A stretch of DNA of 64,000 nucleotides from Ruditapes philippinarum (lineage: Eukaryota). The position numbers are program-made. Shown here in pieces: positions 27,001 through 42,000 of the stretch. How positions within the stretch are numbered: position 1 is the first letter of the stretch; each line of letters begins with the position of its first letter. The DNA is taken from the NCBI RefSeq assembly GCF_026571515.1, contig NW_026861764.1:186001-250000 (forward strand), in the 5' to 3' direction.

Positions 27001-30000
27001 CCTGCGTTATTTTGTGTCAAGATGAAGTGAATCATTTTTACATTTTTCTTGTTTACTAAAGTGAACGCAAATATAATATAAAGACGACAATCATTGATTT
27101 CGGTTTAGAACGCTTAAACGTCATGTTAGCAGTAACTTTAAGTCTGTACAAAAATCTCACACAAGAACACACGTATTAAATACTATGCAACTTTAAAACA
27201 TTGTGTTTTTTTCTTGTTTACTTAAATGACCGAGAATATCATATAAAGACAGCCAACATTGATTTCAGTTCAGGACACTATAACGTCAAGTAAACAGTAG
27301 CTTTAAGTCCGTACAAAAATCTCCCAGGAATTCAAGTATTCAATACTATACAACTTTCAAACATTGTGTTTTCATTGCACTCTGTGAGTGAACCCCTCTG
27401 TTGTTTGCATGTGTCAAGTGATCAATGGAAATCGTTACAAAAAAGTTACATATAAACCGATTTCCGCTTATGTTTAACGTCTTGATATTAATTTTATATT
27501 ATATTATATGAATTTATTCAGACTGTGGGTTTCCATTAAATGTGACCAATGGTAATTTGCAATATATCGCAACAACGTTTGGATCAACTGCTTCTCTAGC
27601 CTGTGATAGAGGATACATGCATGATGGAAACGGGACAATAAGCTGCCTTGACACAGGCAGTTGGGAAACACCACCAAGATGTTCTATTAAAGGTCAACTT
27701 TAATTTGTATCACTTTCAATCTTTGTTAAATTTCACTTTACTTTACTTGACACCAAAGTCAGTAGGTGGATACTTTATACAAGACCCAACATGGGATGGC
27801 TGCCCAGGTGTCTGTGCTCAAGGTCAAGGTCACTGTTACTAAAAATGAGATCAGTTTCTGCTCACTAACTTTGAGTTTACTTTGGCCTATTGACACCAAA
27901 CTTCTTGTATATGTAGATTATATCAGAAGGCAGCTGGGGATTGCTTCACTGAGGCCTATTATAAAGGTCAAGGTCACTGTTACTAAATAGGAAAATGTAG
28001 TTTTTGCTCAATAATTTGCTTTGGCCCATTGACACCAAATTTGGTCTATATGTAGCATATATAAAGAGGCCGTATGGGTCAAGCAGGTGTCTGTGGTCAA
28101 GGTCAAGGTCAATGTTACTAAATATAGGTTTTTTTGACAATTTGACACTTTCTGTGTGGCAGCTTGGTATTGCCACTTAGATATCTTGGATCAAGGTCAA
28201 TGTCATTTGCTTACAAAAAGATTTATTTTTCAGCTGCTACTCAATAATTTAAGTGCTCTTTGACCTATTGATTCTTGTCACATCAAAACTTGGTCGTTGA
28301 AAACCTGGTTTCGTCTCGGTGCGGCGCTTCTTGTTGAAATATTATATGTAGCTATTCAAATTGCACCGCCAGGACAACGTTACAGAATTAAAATATGAAA
28401 GAGTGTAACAGGAAAATTCAACTCCATAGTAGGATAACGCTATCGATAAGATATTAATTCTAGTTTATGTTGTTTAATGTTTAAGATCACAGTCATCTTA
28501 TTCAAGATACATGTATATTTTTCAACCTTATTCTTTACAAATATGTTATTTATTAATCAATCGATCCATAAGTTTCTCAAACAATTGTAAAAATTTGCTT
28601 TTTGTGTATTACTTTTCTATCGTTTCATTAATTAATAATCTGATGTAATTATCGAAAAATCATATTTATATATTTAAAAATGTACCGCTATGACAACGTT
28701 AGAGACTTAAAATCTGGAATAGGAAAATACAACTTCGTGGTAGGATACTGTTACCAATAAAACACAAAATCTTGTTCATGACGTTTAAGATTTAAGATCA
28801 CAGTGTTCTGATAAAGATATATGTTAACCCCCAAAGCCTTACAATTATGTTAAATATTCATCAACTGAACTCTGAGTTTCTCACTTAAATACCTTGACAC
28901 TCACTCGCTGTCAATAAAAAATACTGAGGAATCTTTCATTCTAGTTATTCTAGTTAATCGTTATTATAAATATGAACCATTTTCCCACTTATGTTTAACG
29001 TCATAATAATAAATTTAAAAGTAATTAATAAATGTAATCATTATTCAGACTGTGGTTCTCCATTGAATGTGACCAATGGTAATTTGCAATATATCGCAAC
29101 AACGTTTGGATCAACTGCTTCTCTTGTCTGTGATAGAGGATATAATGGAAACAGGACAATAAGCTGCCTTGAAACAGGCAGTTGGGAAACACCACCTAGA
29201 TGTTCTATTAAAGGTCACTTTTAATTTGTATCAATTTCCATCCCTGCATTTTTAGAAATTTTGTCAATACATTTGATATGTATATCTTTAACTACAATGT
29301 AAACCCGGACGTTAATGAATTATAAATATGTTACGTACACTACTGTATAGGTGAATTTAGAAATAGATCTGTCAACGATTGACCTTATAGGTATTACACA
29401 TATAATCTGCTTTTTGTGTATCACTTATGCTTTGTTTTTATTTTTAATTCTCTTATTTCATTATTGAATAATTTAATTTATCAATCCAAAAATTACCGCT
29501 AGGACAATGTTAAAGAATCAAAATCTGGAAAGAAAAATACAACTTCGTTGTGAGATACTTTTACCAATGAAACACTGAATCTGGTTCATGACATTTAAGA
29601 ATTAAGGTCACAGTGATCTGATAAAGATATATGTTTCCTCCTACTTCCTTACAATTATGATAAATATTAATCAATAGACCCTGAGTTTCACACTCAAATA
29701 TCAAATCATGGTGGTTGTATTTTAGCTGACCAGAACACATTCAGCTAGCGTTTGTAGCTCATCAAAAAACAACAATCCTCATGTGATGTTTTGTGATTAT
29801 ATACAGTTTGTCGTCCTATGTCAGTACCTCTGTGTTTAAATTTTGTTTTTTATGCGGTCATGGTTATAATAGGAGACTATTGATTGTATTTGTTTAATTC
29901 ATTTGGTTAAAAATGATTTCTCTAAAATGGCTTTATGTGATTAAAAATAATTCGGGTATATGCTTTGTTGATATTGGCATTTGGGAAACTGTGCCGTCAA

Positions 30001-39000: not shown

Positions 39001-42000
39001 TTTTAGCTGCCCAGAGCACATTCTGCTCACATTTGCAGCTCAATAAAGAACTCCTCATATGATTTCTTGTGATTATGTACAGTTTGCCTTCCTATTACAG
39101 CATGTCTGCGTTTAAAGTTTGGTTTTTATGTTGTCAAAGTTATAATAGGAAACAGGTGATTGTCATTGTTTCCTTCATTTGGTTAAAAATGATGCTTCTA
39201 ATATGGCTTTATGTGGTTGAACATAACTCAGGTACATGCTTTGTTGATATTGGCATTTGGGAAACAGAAACATTTGCCGTCCAAATATATTGAAATGTAT
39301 ACATTATTCGCTTTTTTATAATCCTTTGAGAGCTCTTTTTTATGCATTGTGACTTCTATATATTAAATACAAATAAAAGAGTATCAAGCTATAGCTGAAG
39401 GTACTTTTCCTTAACATAAAACGGTAAAATTATGTCGTTTTCATACGGTTATTGTACGGAAATAGAATAAAATATTCTAGAAACAACATATTTAGACAAC
39501 ATATTTGGATGCTTTTATTTGTAAATTGGAAAATAATTTTATGAATGCCTCACTCGCTGTCAATAAAATATACTGGGGAATCTTTCATTCTAGTTATTCT
39601 ACGAAATTATTATCATGAATATGAATATGAACCATTTTTCCGCTTTTATTTAACCTTTATGTTATTAAATTTAAAAGTAACTAATGAATGTAATCATTCT
39701 TCAGACTGTGGGTCTCCATTGAATGTTACCAACGGTAAATTGCAATATATTGCAACAACTTTTGGATCAACCGCTTCCCTTGCCTGTGATAAAGGATATG
39801 ATGGAAACGGGACAATAATCTGCCTTGACACAGGCAGTTGGGAAACACCACCAAGGTGTTCTATTAAAGGTCAATTTTAATTTCTATCAATTTCCATTTT
39901 TCTTAAATACTAAAAACTTTTGTCAATACATTTGATACGTATATGTTTAACTTCAATGTAAACCCGGACGTTCATGAATTATGAATATATTATGTGCATT
40001 ACTGTATAGGTGAGTTTAAAAATAGATCCGTCACCGTTTTATTTTATAGGTATAGTACACATTAACTTTTTTGTGTATTACTTTTGTTTTGTTTTCATTT
40101 TAAATTGACTTATTTTATTACCGAAAATTTCTATTTATTTATTCAAAAATGTACCGCTAGGACAACGTTAAAGAATTTAGTTAGGGAACAGGAAAATACA
40201 ACTTCGTTGTAGCATAATGTTACCAATGAAACACTGAATCTGGTTCTTGATTTTTAAAAATTAAGGTCACAGTGATCTGATAAAGATATAATGTCCCCTC
40301 CTACTTCTTTACAATTATGATAAATATTAATCAATAGACCCCGAGTTTCTCACTCAAATAGCTCAACGAAAAACAACAGTCCTTATATGATTGTTTGTGA
40401 TTATATATCGTTTGTCGGCCTATGTCAGTACCTGAGCGTTTAAATGTTGGTTTGTATGTGTTCGTTGTTATAATAAGAAACAATTAATTATCCTTGTTTA
40501 TTTCATTTGGTTAAAATTGATGTTTCTAATATGCCTTTTTAAACCTTTGAATGCTCTTTTGTGTGCATTGTGACTTGTTTATATGAAATACAAATGAAAA
40601 AGTATAAGCAATATCTGATGGTACTTTTCCTTAAAAAACGGTAACATTATGGCGATTTCATATGAATGTTGTACGGAAATAGAATAAAAAAAGAAAGAAA
40701 TAACATATTTAGACAACATATTAAGATGCTTTTTTTGTAAATTGGACGATTATTTTATGAATGCCTCACTCGCTGTCAATCAAATTTACTGAGGAATCTT
40801 TCATTCTATTAATTCTAGTTAATCGTTATTATGAATATAAATATGAACCATTTTTTCCGCTTATGTTTAACGTTATGATATTAGATTTAAATGTAACTAA
40901 TGGATGTAATCATTCTTCAGACTGTGGGTCTCCATTGAATGTAACCAATGGTAATTTGCAATATATCGCAACAACGTTTGGATCAACCGCTTCTCTTGTC
41001 TGTGATAAAGGATATGACGGAAACAGGACAATAAGCTGCCTTGACACAGGCAGTTGGGAAACACAAGCAATGTGTTCTATTATAGGTCAATTTTAATTTC
41101 TATCAATTTCCATTTTTTCTAAAATACGAAGAACTTTTGTCAATACATTTCATATGTATACCTAGAACTTAAATGTAAGCTCGGACGGTAATGAATTATA
41201 AATATAATATGTTAATAACTGTATAGGTGAGTTTATAAATAGATATCCGTCACCGTTTTACCTTTAAGGTATTCTTCACATTATCTGCTTTTTGTGTATC
41301 ACTTTTTTTTCATCAATTGTATTATGTTATGATTGAAACCTTATATTTATCTATTCAAAAATGTTCCGCTAGGACAACGTTTAAGAATTAAATTAGGGAA
41401 CAGGAAAACACAACTGCGTTGTAAGATAATGCTACCAATAAAACACCGAATCTGGTTCATGACTTATAAAGATTTAAGGTCACAGTGATCTGATAGATAT
41501 ATGTTCCCTCCCAAATCCTAACAAAATATTAATCAATAGACCTCAGAGTTTCTCACTCAAATATTTATCAAAAACATGGTTGTTGTATTTAAGCAGACCA
41601 GAGTTCATTCCGTTAACGTTTGTAGCTCGACACAAAACAACAATCCTCATGTTTTTCTCGCTTGTGATTATATTCCTATTTCAGTATGTCTGGGTTTAAA
41701 TTTTGGTTTTATGTGGTCATGGTAATAATAGGAAACGATTTATTGTCCTTGTTTCCTTCATTTGGATAAAAATGATGTTTCTAATATGGCTTTATGTGGT
41801 TGCAAATAACCCAGGTTTATGCTTTGTTGATATTGGCATTTGGGATACTGGAACATGGGCCGTCAAATCTTTATTGAAATTTGTACATTATTCGTCTTTT
41901 TTATACCCTTGATAGCTCTTTTGTAATAATTGTGACTTGTATATATGAAATGCATATAAAAGATTATCAAGCTATATCTGAAGGTACTTTTGTTTAAAAA

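What the first reader, a model, noticed from the sequence alone, without database searches (positions are those of the whole stretch)
29049..41085. Higher-order ABC x3 exon-intron array with readable duplication history
Seen: exon types alternate A (LVCD..NRT..LETG), B (LKV..PPSC) and C (NGKLQ..PPRC) as A-B-C-A-B-C-A-B-C-A', with trimer periods of about 4.07 kb and 3.84-3.96 kb. The introns after CCP11 and CCP14 share a deletion of about 110 bp that the intron after CCP8 lacks, and the intron after CCP12 has a private deletion of about 100 bp. Inference: monomer amplification was followed by trimer-scale unequal crossovers, so stalk length may be a population copy-number polymorphism in steps of 3 CCPs (analogous to the long homologous repeats of CR1).
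Basis: partly seen in the sequence, partly recalled or inferred. Interest (0 to 1): 0.65.

Follow-up and report, generated by a model that had tools for sequence, protein, structure and literature searches.

The report
Three-exon repeat block in clam gene
A clam lectin-type gene holds a block of three sushi-domain exons, with their introns, that was copied in tandem twice; it is a clean but ordinary example of how repeat proteins lengthen.

Summary
Ten 165-bp, phase 1-1 Sushi/CCP exons lie at 29049-41085 on the + strand, with periods of 4071, 3962 and 3839 bp. Whole exon-plus-intron units of one type are 95.1-99.2% identical. Units of different types are 84.3-87.1% identical. An intron-only tree gives clades A, B and C at 100/100, each with topology (1,(2,3)).

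C2 and C3 share a 107-bp deletion. A3 has a private 104-bp deletion.

One refinement: the tenth exon "A'" is not a fourth A unit. It is the ancestral fourth monomer, D. A2 and A3 are hybrid exons, D at the 5' end and A at the 3' end. The array is therefore exactly three periods. It is explained by two unequal crossovers, one inside the exon and one about 110 bp upstream of it.

The gene encodes a trypsin-like domain, 16 CCPs and a C-terminal C-type lectin domain. Its closest database relatives are Ruditapes philippinarum "SVEP1-like" proteins. I do not take the contig for human.

Copy-number polymorphism and assembly correctness could not be tested here. This is a new member of a known kind, comparable to the CR1 long homologous repeats, and of modest interest.

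The parts
8217..8403 (+). First recognisable coding exon, the start of the trypsin-like domain. Boundaries are approximate. No start codon or signal peptide was found.
   Evidence: tblastn with P0001 residues 1-69 gives 55% identity. The Pfam Trypsin match is 15.2 bits, below the cut-off.
13423..13572 (+). N-terminal domain exon (approximate).
   Evidence: tblastn with P0001 residues 83-133 gives 43% identity.
15903..16115 (+). N-terminal domain exon (approximate).
   Evidence: tblastn with P0001 residues 109-177 gives 44% identity.
16845..16994 (+). Last N-terminal domain exon (approximate).
   Evidence: tblastn gives 57% identity to P0001 and 86% to P0005.
18608..27692 (+). Five CCP exons upstream of the repeat. 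They are CCP1 18608-18781, CCP2 20729-20902, CCP3 22506-22679, CCP4 24865-25029 and CCP5 ('pre') 27522-27692.
   Evidence: Pfam Sushi scores are 33.3-47.3 bits against a cut-off of 20.7. Splice sites were read from the sequence.
28592..28891 (+). Piece of the CCP5 intron that is about 80% identical to positions +364 to +661 of the repeat-unit intron. It is a remnant showing that CCP5 was once part of the monomer array.
   Evidence: Self-BLAST.
28900..42182 (+). Whole monomer array, the extent of unit-to-unit similarity. The order is A1 B1 C1 A2 B2 C2 A3 B3 C3 D.
   Evidence: Self-BLAST.
29049..33119 (+). Trimer period 1 (H1), phased at the start of exon A. Exons are A1 29049-29213, B1 30421-30585 and C1 31784-31948.
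33120..37081 (+). Trimer period 2 (H2). Exons are A2 33120-33284, B2 34488-34652 and C2 35865-36029.
37082..40920 (+). Trimer period 3 (H3). Exons are A3 37082-37246, B3 38350-38514 and C3 39705-39869.
40921..41085 (+). It is the ancestral fourth monomer exon, D. Its 5' three-quarters are homologous at trimer level to A2 and A3; its 3' end is D-specific.
41086..42182 (+). The part of the D intron that is homologous to the unit intron. It is a fourth type, about 80-85% identical to A, B and C.
32623..32729 (+). 107-bp segment present in C1 and missing from both C2 (36697|36698) and C3 (40535|40536). The junction shows CTTT microhomology.
34025..34128 (+). 104-bp segment present in A2 (and in A1) and missing only from A3 (37986|37987). 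The junction shows TTTGT microhomology.
33218..33289 (+). Junction zone of the first (older) unequal crossover, seen in hybrid exon A2. The homologous zones are A1 29147-29218, A3 37180-37251 and D 41019-41090.
   Evidence: Site patterns.
33002..33009 (+). Junction of the second (younger) crossover, about 110 bp upstream of exon A. The homologous points are 36964-36971 and 40802-40809.
   Evidence: The site pattern switches here, Fisher p = 1.7e-4.
42183..44688 (+). Unrelated, GC-richer insert in the 3' part of the D intron. It holds 48-nt inverted repeats (42237-42284 and 42799-42846) and a tandem repeat of about 150 bp (43821-44565).
44689..44856 (+). CCP16 exon.
   Evidence: Pfam Sushi scores 28.2 bits. 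Splice sites were read from the sequence.
47425..47504 (+). C-type lectin domain, exon 1.
   Evidence: tblastn to P0004 and P0005. Splice sites were read from the sequence.
57706..57793 (+). C-type lectin domain, exon 2.
   Evidence: tblastn. Splice sites were read from the sequence.
61382..61608 (+). C-type lectin domain, exon 3, including the stop codon at 61606-61608.
   Evidence: Pfam Lectin_C scores 25.1 bits against a cut-off of 22.6. tblastn and sequence reading support the boundaries.

Best explanation
**What it is.** This is a genuine higher-order tandem repeat inside a protein-coding gene of a bivalve. The closest database relatives come from the Manila clam, Ruditapes philippinarum.

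**The gene.** It lies on the + strand, from about 8.2 to 61.6 kb. It encodes a degenerate trypsin-like domain, then 16 Sushi/CCP modules with one 165-174-bp phase 1-1 exon each, then a C-terminal C-type lectin domain.

**Proposed history.**
1. An older amplification of a monomer of about 1.35 kb (one CCP exon plus its intron) produced CCP5-A-B-C-D. Those monomers now differ by about 15-17%.
2. An unequal crossover paired exon D of one chromatid with exon A of the other and resolved inside the exon. The result was A1-B1-C1-[hybrid D5'/A3' exon]-B-C-D.
3. The 107-bp deletion then arose in the second C intron.
4. A second unequal crossover, about 110 bp upstream of the A exon, copied the second trimer. 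The result is the present A1B1C1-A2B2C2-A3B3C3-D.
5. The 104-bp deletion in the A3 intron came last.

**Consequences.** Every exon is 165 bp and phase 1-1, so each event adds exactly 165 residues (three CCP modules) in frame. The effect is a longer CCP rod between the protease-like head and the lectin domain.

**Shown and inferred.**
- Shown: the repeat structure, the order of events and the junction positions.
- Inferred: that the mechanism was unequal crossing-over rather than a replication-based duplication, that all exons are spliced in, and that rod length matters functionally.
For: **Repeat structure**
- Same-type units are 95.1-99.2% identical and different-type units 84.3-87.1%.
- Self-BLAST gives 3.8-kb alignments at offsets 4065 and 3858.
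- The intron-only ML tree gives A, B and C at 100/100. Within each clade, copy 2 joins copy 3 at 100/>=99. The D intron lies outside all three.

**Order of events**
- Of 3811 ungapped columns, 132 sites have H2=H3 differing from H1. 24 are private to H2, 24 private to H3, and 2 differ in all three.
- JC distances are 0.0127 for H2-H3 and 0.0426 for H1-H2. Between types the distance is about 0.17; I derived that figure from an approximate 15.5% difference that I entered by hand.
- The 107-bp deletion is shared at identical junctions by C2 and C3. The 104-bp deletion is private to A3.

**Junction mapping on the flanks of A2, A3 and A4**
- Positions -640 to -111: 24 sites with A3=A4 against A2, 2 sites with A2=A3 against A4, and 6 sites with A2=A4 against A3.
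- Positions -110 to +124: 6 sites with A2=A3 against A4, 1 site with A3=A4 against A2, and 1 with A2=A4 against A3.
- The switch between these two zones gives Fisher p = 1.7e-4.
- Positions +125 to +420: 65 of 292 sites have A2=A3 against A4. In 57 of those, A1 agrees with A2 and A3.
- In -110 to +124, A1 differs from A2=A3=A4 at 15 sites.

**Exon integrity and constraint**
- 10 of 10 exons are 165 bp with AG/GT sites and an open frame.
- Between types, pS is 0.158, close to intron divergence, and pN is 0.050, a ratio of 0.31. Exons and introns therefore duplicated together and the exons are under constraint.

**Domains and relatives**
- Sushi matched above its cut-off in 11 of 11 CCP exon peptides scanned: CCP1-5, A1, B1, C1, A2, A4 and CCP16. 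B2, C2, A3, B3 and C3 were not scanned separately.
- The gene map comes from tblastn with P0001-P0005.
- CCP number differs among the five named relatives found, from 3 to 8 CCP matches per model. That fits a family in which CCP number changes readily.
Against: - There is no read-level support. The 1.26% H2-H3 divergence lies within the range of allelic divergence reported for bivalves (recalled, not checked). A tandem mis-join of two alleles cannot be excluded from the sequence alone.
- One marker conflicts inside the older junction. Position +125 is shared with A1 but lies 5' of position +147, which is shared with D. This needs a recurrent change or a short conversion patch.
- NRT is shared by A1 and D. 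That also needs either a recurrent CpG-to-CpA change or a conversion event (the CpG reading is my inference).
- H2-H3 divergence is uneven: A 10/1264, B 16/1353 and C 26/1214, chi-square p = 0.012. The older flank at the end of C explains this only in part.
- There is no transcript evidence that all ten exons are used.
- No orthologue or second haplotype was available to show a different copy number.
Confidence: 0.85

Rival explanations
1. Assembly artefact. The third trimer (or the second) is an allelic copy, or an over-expanded repeat, that the assembler placed in tandem. The real locus would then have fewer periods.
For: - H2 and H3 differ by only 48 of 3811 aligned sites plus small indels. 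That is of the order of heterozygosity reported for bivalves (recalled).
- In-register identical tracts reach 277 bp.
Against: - The window has no N.
- The whole array is about 13 kb, short enough for single long reads to span (inference).
- The H2/H3 boundary shows a patterned change of ancestry that fits a crossover between the C1 and C2 intron ends, Fisher p = 1.7e-4. A simple allelic mis-join does not predict this.
- H1 differs from H2 and H3 by about 4%, with its own indels.
Confidence: 0.07
2. There were no trimer duplications. Nine old monomers were made periodically similar by gene conversion, that is, by concerted evolution with a period of three.
For: - Mosaic markers in the exon junction zone (+125 against +147) show that some conversion or recurrent change is needed in any case.
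Against: - Similarity is continuous over about 3.8-4 kb, including the whole introns.
- Indels are shared at identical junctions.
- The three types give the same (1,(2,3)) topology.
- Synonymous exon divergence equals intron divergence, so there is no sign of exon-centred homogenisation.
Confidence: 0.03
3. The trimer duplications happened, but with different details. The duplicated segments had boundaries elsewhere, and the A-like 5' part of the last exon (A4) results from a later gene conversion from A3. It would not be the ancestral D exon that donated its 5' part to A2 and A3.
For: - A2 and A3 against A4 show 0 synonymous and 5-6 non-synonymous differences, all towards the 3' end.
- The junction-zone markers are mosaic.
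- NRT is shared by A1 and A4.
Against: - It needs extra events.
- It does not explain why the 5' exon part and upstream flank of A1 are not trimer-homologous to A2 and A3: 15 A1-specific sites lie in -110 to +124.
- It does not explain why A4 differs from A2=A3 there at about 2.6% (6 of 235), the level of the older duplication rather than of a recent conversion.
Confidence: 0.1

Closest known systems
Long homologous repeats (LHRs) of human complement receptor 1 (CR1), encoded by 18-kb low-copy repeats
   Same: - CCP/Sushi modules are organised into a higher-order repeat inside one gene.
- Gain or loss of a whole repeat changes protein length in frame.
- In CR1 this is a known population copy-number variant giving the isoforms F, S, D and F'. 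I read passages of PMC3265835.
   Different: - The period is 3 CCPs and about 4 kb here, against 7 CCPs and 18 kb in CR1.
- Here each CCP is one exon.
- No membrane anchor was found.
- The flanking domains differ: a trypsin-like domain and a C-type lectin domain.
- Polymorphism is not shown.
- There is no homology beyond the shared domain type.
Bivalve 'type-A P-selectin' / 'SVEP1-like' CCP plus C-type lectin genes of Venerida
   Same: - The domain content is many CCPs plus a C-type lectin domain.
- The family is reported to be expanded by tandem gene duplication in Venerida. I read passages of PMC9484242.
- The closest proteins are R. philippinarum 'SVEP1-like' models, 80-87% identical to exon A2.
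   Different: - The paper describes duplication of whole genes. In the passages I read, it says nothing about exon-level higher-order repeats.
- The relatives found carry 3-8 CCPs, against 16 here.
- The names are automatic. No EGF, vWA or pentraxin domain was found here.
Other coding higher-order repeats: NBPF Olduvai three-domain blocks, LPA kringle IV-2 two-exon repeat, nebulin super-repeats (all recalled from memory, not checked here)
   Same: A multi-exon block is amplified in tandem, in frame, after an older monomer amplification.
   Different: The domain types and organisms are different, and those cases have documented copy-number variation or function.
Alpha-satellite-type higher-order repeats (the concept)
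   Same: The defining pattern is the same. Monomers n positions apart are much more alike than neighbours: 95-99% against 84-87%.
   Different: Here the monomer is a spliced exon plus its intron in a gene, with only three periods. It is not non-coding satellite DNA.

Membership tests
Sushi / CCP / SCR domain (Pfam PF00084) | Profile match above Pfam's gathering score. | tested here: met
   11 of 11 CCP exon peptides scanned scored 28.2-47.3 bits against a cut-off of 20.7. B2, C2, A3, B3 and C3 were not scanned on their own. They differ from the scanned exon of their own type (B1, C1 or A2) at 0-2 nucleotide positions of 165.
Sushi / CCP / SCR domain (Pfam PF00084) | Four conserved Cys and the conserved Trp. 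| tested here: met
   15 exons matched a Cys-Cys-Cys-Trp-Cys pattern. All 16 sequences are listed.
Higher-order tandem repeat | Monomers one period apart are more alike than adjacent monomers, over at least two periods. | tested here: met
   Identity is 95.1-99.2% against 84.3-87.1% over three periods.
Higher-order tandem repeat | Units cluster by position type in a tree. | tested here: met
   In the intron-only tree, A, B and C are each 100/100. At protein level the A rows cluster at 89/78 and the B rows at 99/91. The C rows are grouped with three R. philippinarum domains at 95/79.
CR1-type long homologous repeat | A repeat of seven CCPs on a genomic unit of about 18 kb. | tested here: not met
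   The repeat here is three CCPs on 3.84-4.07 kb. The CR1 figures come from PMC3265835.
CR1-type long homologous repeat | Repeat number varies between individuals. | not testable with these tools
   No reads, haplotypes or eukaryotic genome collection were available. The lectin-exon search found no orthologue.
CR1-type long homologous repeat | Membrane-anchored receptor whose ligand-binding sites are repeated with each block. | tested here: not met
   The coding sequence stops directly after the lectin domain, as in relatives P0001 and P0005. No anchor exon was seen. Ligand binding was not tested.
Selectins | The domain order is N-terminal C-type lectin, EGF, CCPs, transmembrane segment. | tested here: not met
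   The lectin domain is C-terminal. No EGF match was found in any peptide scanned.
SVEP1 | vWA, EGF and pentraxin domains beside the Sushi repeats. | tested here: not met
   None of these was found in the window peptides or in relatives P0001 and P0005.
C-type lectin domain (PF00059) | Profile match above the gathering score. | tested here: met
   The last exon scores 25.1 bits against 22.6. Relatives P0001 and P0005 score 78.2 and 55.5 bits.
Trypsin-like serine protease (PF00089) | Profile match above the cut-off, and an intact catalytic triad. | tested here: inconclusive
   Relative P0001 scores 21.4 bits against 20.6. The window's first exon alone scores 15.2 bits, below the cut-off. The window reads ...LTLADC... 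where the active-site His is expected. The position of that motif is recalled, not tested.

The most novel reading that the evidence does not exclude
The trimer cassette is an active length polymorphism of a clam recognition lectin. Individuals or haplotypes would carry different numbers of the 165-residue ABC block, for example 13, 16 or 19 CCPs. These would be generated by recombination between 4-kb copies that are 96-99% identical. Rod length, and the number of glycosylated CCP modules, would be under selection. That would be an invertebrate counterpart of the CR1 size alleles. In addition, the in-exon crossover created a new hybrid CCP type.
Probability: 0.3. Interest if true: 0.5.

Novelty: new member of a known kind. 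Interest (0 to 1): 0.3.

Why it matters
It is an unusually legible case of how a repeat protein grows. Monomers, trimers, both recombination junctions and two later deletions can all be ordered from one haplotype.

If copy number varies between clams, the locus would be a simple marker. It would also be a test case for length variation in an invertebrate immune-type lectin.

It also warns annotators. Automatic gene models for this family are fragmentary, and automatic models may mis-count near-identical exons of this kind. As a class of phenomenon it is well known.

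Tried and rejected
- **Human origin: rejected.** GC is about 30%. All named protein relatives are from a clam. I do not take the contig for human.
- **Four-way alignment of the trimer copies.** It put the partial fourth copy in the wrong register. I replaced it with targeted alignments.
- **Tandem Repeats Finder.** It cannot see periods above 500 bp, so it does not report the array. Self-BLAST was used instead.
- **Search for an orthologue with the last lectin exon, longer proteins.** There were 4 candidates and none passed.
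- **The exon A2 search.** It returned no protein identical to the window, so this gene's own model is apparently not in that collection.
- **Transposon or other coding content.** 14 further ORFs were scanned against Pfam and none matched above its cut-off. Four unrelated ORFs also gave nothing.
- **RNA genes in the introns.** Rfam gave 0 matches at gathering scores and ARAGORN found 0 tRNAs.
- **Selectin and SVEP1 membership: rejected** (see the membership test).
- **Literature (search listings).** I found no paper describing an exon-level higher-order repeat in a bivalve CCP gene. Of PMC5100051 I read only the one passage matching 'exon'; the terms 'Sushi', 'duplication unit', 'several domains' and 'multiple domains' did not occur. 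Of PMC10140915 I read only a passage noting sushi domains among bivalve lectin architectures. Paper supplements were not seen. Those of PMC9484242 may list gene models of this family.
- **Collections not applicable.** Genome contigs holds only bacteria and archaea, so it was not used. No eukaryotic genome or read collection was available.

Full report
**Source and scope**

The window has no N and a GC content of about 30%. A search with one exon (A2, 55 aa) against longer proteins found 7 proteins at E <= 1e-5 among 23 candidates. Five are NCBI models from the clam Ruditapes philippinarum, named 'sushi, von Willebrand factor type A, EGF and pentraxin domain-containing protein 1-like'. They are 80-87% identical to the exon. 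The other two are unnamed JGI hypothetical proteins, which I did not use.

I therefore take the contig for a bivalve, probably a venerid, and not for human. No database protein was identical to the exon, so the species and this gene's own model remain undetermined.

All protein searches were made exon by exon. I built and searched no joined (spliced) model, so no whole-protein search or fold was done.

**The gene**

tblastn of the five clam proteins onto the window, together with reading of the splice sites, gives one gene on the + strand:

- Four exons of an N-terminal domain, at about 8217-8403, 13423-13572, 15903-16115 and 16845-16994.
- Sixteen CCP exons.
- Three exons of a C-type lectin domain, at 47425-47504, 57706-57793 and 61382-61605, with the stop codon at 61606-61608.

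Domain evidence:

- Sushi (PF00084) was matched above its cut-off by 11 of 11 CCP exon peptides scanned.
- Lectin_C was matched above its cut-off by the last exon.
- The N-terminal domain is trypsin-like, but only marginally. Relative P0001 scores 21.4 bits against a cut-off of 20.6. The window's first exon scores 15.2 bits.
- The window reads LTLADC where I recall the active-site His to lie, so a non-catalytic protease homologue is likely. This is inference.
- No start codon, signal peptide or membrane anchor was found.

**Check of the observation**

The ten exons at 29049-41085 are each 165 bp. Each has an AG acceptor, a GT donor, an open frame and phase 1-1.

The periods are 4071, 3962 and 3839 bp.

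Whole exon-plus-intron units compare as follows:

| Comparison | Identity |
|---|---|
| Same type | 95.1-99.2% |
| Different types among the nine units | 84.3-87.1% |
| Tenth unit against all others | 81.0-82.9% |

Self-BLAST shows the array from 28900 to 42182, with 3.8-kb alignments at offsets 4065 and 3858.

An ML tree of the introns alone places A, B and C in three clades, each at 100/100. Within each clade, copy 2 joins copy 3 at 100/>=99. The tenth intron lies outside all three.

**Indels**

- C2 and C3 both lack 107 bp that C1 has at 32623-32729, with identical junctions.
- A3 alone lacks 104 bp that A2 has at 34025-34128.
- The junctions show short direct repeats, CTTT and TTTGT. That fits microhomology-mediated deletion, which is my inference.
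- The two deletions overlap in the monomer register: alignment columns 1097-1209 and 1103-1260.

**Order and relative age**

Of 3811 ungapped columns of the three trimers, 132 have H2=H3 differing from H1. 24 are private to H2, 24 private to H3, and 2 differ in all three.

The JC distances are 0.0127 for H2-H3 and 0.0426 for H1-H2. Between types the distance is about 0.17, from an approximate 15.5% difference that I entered by hand. The three steps therefore stand roughly as 1: 0.25: 0.07 in age.

I aligned the four A-type exons with their flanks and found three zones.

| Zone (relative to exon start) | A3=A4 against A2 | A2=A3 against A4 | A2=A4 against A3 | Note |
|---|---|---|---|---|
| -640 to -111 | 24 sites | 2 sites | 6 sites | |
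| -110 to +124 | 1 site | 6 sites | 1 site | 6 of 235 columns is 2.6%, the level of the older duplication; A1 differs from the other three at 15 sites |
| +125 to +420 | 1 site | 65 of 292 sites | 0 sites | in 57 of the 65, A1 agrees with A2 and A3 |

The switch at about -110 is significant, Fisher p = 1.7e-4.

The simplest account is as follows:

1. The ancestral array was CCP5-A-B-C-D.
2. An unequal crossover between exon D and exon A resolved in the 3' third of the exon, at relative positions +99 to +170. It produced a hybrid exon (now A2 and A3) and the first extra trimer.
3. A second crossover about 110 bp upstream of the A exon (33002-33009, 36964-36971 and 40802-40809) added the third trimer.

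The tenth exon, A', is thus the original D exon, and the array is exactly three periods.

There are two blemishes. Position +125 is A1-like but lies 5' of position +147, which is D-like. NRT is shared by A1 and D, and this may be a recurrent CpG-to-CpA change (AAC GGG to AAC AGG). Both need a recurrent change or a short conversion patch.

**Constraint on the exons**

Between types, pS is 0.158, close to the intron divergence, and pN is 0.050. The ratio is 0.31, from sums over non-independent pairs. Exons and introns therefore duplicated together, and the exons are under purifying selection.

A2 and A3 against the D exon show 0 synonymous and 5-6 non-synonymous differences. The numbers are too small to interpret.

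Between-type divergence is 15-20% over most of the intron. It is 6-14% in the last ~220 bp before each exon.

**Mechanism and function**

Every exon is phase 1-1 and 165 bp, so any in-register recombination adds or removes 165 residues in frame. The copies keep identical in-register tracts of up to 277 bp (H2-H3) and 219-235 bp (H1 against the others). That makes further unequal exchange plausible.

I infer that the CCP run is a spacer rod between the protease-like domain and the lectin domain, and that each trimer lengthens it by three modules. This was not tested.

The relatives found carry 3-8 CCP matches per model. One fragmentary model, P0003, has three nearly identical C-like CCPs in a row. 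This suggests frequent change of CCP number in the family, but orthology is not established.

**What stays open**

- Assembly correctness and population copy number. No reads and no eukaryotic genome collection were available.
- Transcript usage of the ten exons.
- An orthologue. The lectin-exon search found none.
- H2-H3 divergence is uneven among A, B and C, chi-square p = 0.012. The older flank at the end of C explains this only in part.

**Comparison with what is known**

The CR1 long homologous repeats are the closest analogue. There, seven CCPs lie on an 18-kb repeat, and a copy-number variant gives protein size isoforms (passages of PMC3265835).

CCP plus C-type lectin genes ('type-A P-selectins') are reported as expanded by tandem gene duplication in Venerida (passages of PMC9484242). 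The passages I read do not mention an exon-level higher-order repeat.

My three literature searches turned up no description of such an array in a bivalve. Supplements were not available.

The phenomenon itself, a multi-domain block duplicated within a repeat protein, is well known. This is a new member of a known kind.

**Verdict**

- The duplication history is supported and refined.
- The polymorphism claim is untested.
- Interest is modest.

Noticed in passing
window 32623-32729 and 34025-34128: Two independent intron deletions (107 bp and 104 bp) remove overlapping homologous parts of the monomer. Each has 4-5 bp of microhomology at its junction. This may be a deletion-prone segment.
   Followed up: partly
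window 28592-28891: The CCP5 intron holds a 300-bp piece that is about 80% identical to an internal part of the unit intron, lying directly before the array start at 28900. CCP5 was therefore once a regular monomer whose intron was later rearranged.
   Followed up: partly
window 42183-44688: A GC-richer insert of about 2.5 kb lies in the D intron. It has 48-nt inverted repeats 514 nt apart (42237-42846) and about five copies of a 145-153-bp tandem repeat (43821-44565). It is possibly a transposable-element insertion. Two ORFs there gave no Pfam match.
   Followed up: partly
window 59447-60538: A satellite-like tandem array (146-bp unit, also scored at periods 234, 285 and 380) lies in the last intron of the lectin domain.
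   Followed up: no
window 27043-27372: A 165-bp unit is repeated twice at 82% identity in the intron before CCP5.
   Followed up: no
exons B1, B2 and B3 (30421-30585, 34488-34652, 38350-38514): B-type exons read LKVT (B2: LKVA) where A and C types read LNVT, so they lose one N-x-T glycosylation sequon. A types read NRT where B and C read NGT; both are sequons.
   Followed up: no
last ~220 bp of each unit intron, e.g. 32900-33119: Between-type divergence falls from 15-20% to 6-14% in the last ~220 bp before each CCP exon. In C3 and A4 an ATG-started frame runs from this flank into the exon, but the other copies have stops. The cause is unknown; splicing signals or local conversion are possible.
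   Followed up: partly
relative protein P0003 (R. philippinarum model): This fragmentary model has one A-like CCP followed by three nearly identical C-like CCPs. It ends by reading into an intron (…SIKGQLFII). The array may be organised differently in a related genome, or the annotation may be poor.
   Followed up: partly
window 51342-51791 (+): A 150-aa open frame lies in the long lectin-domain intron. Its tail reminded me of retrotransposon ORF2 ends (recalled). Pfam gave no match.
   Followed up: partly
window 3-407 (-): An open frame at the window edge ends in a C2H2 zinc-finger-like motif. The Pfam matches are all below their cut-offs, at 15-16 bits.
   Followed up: no
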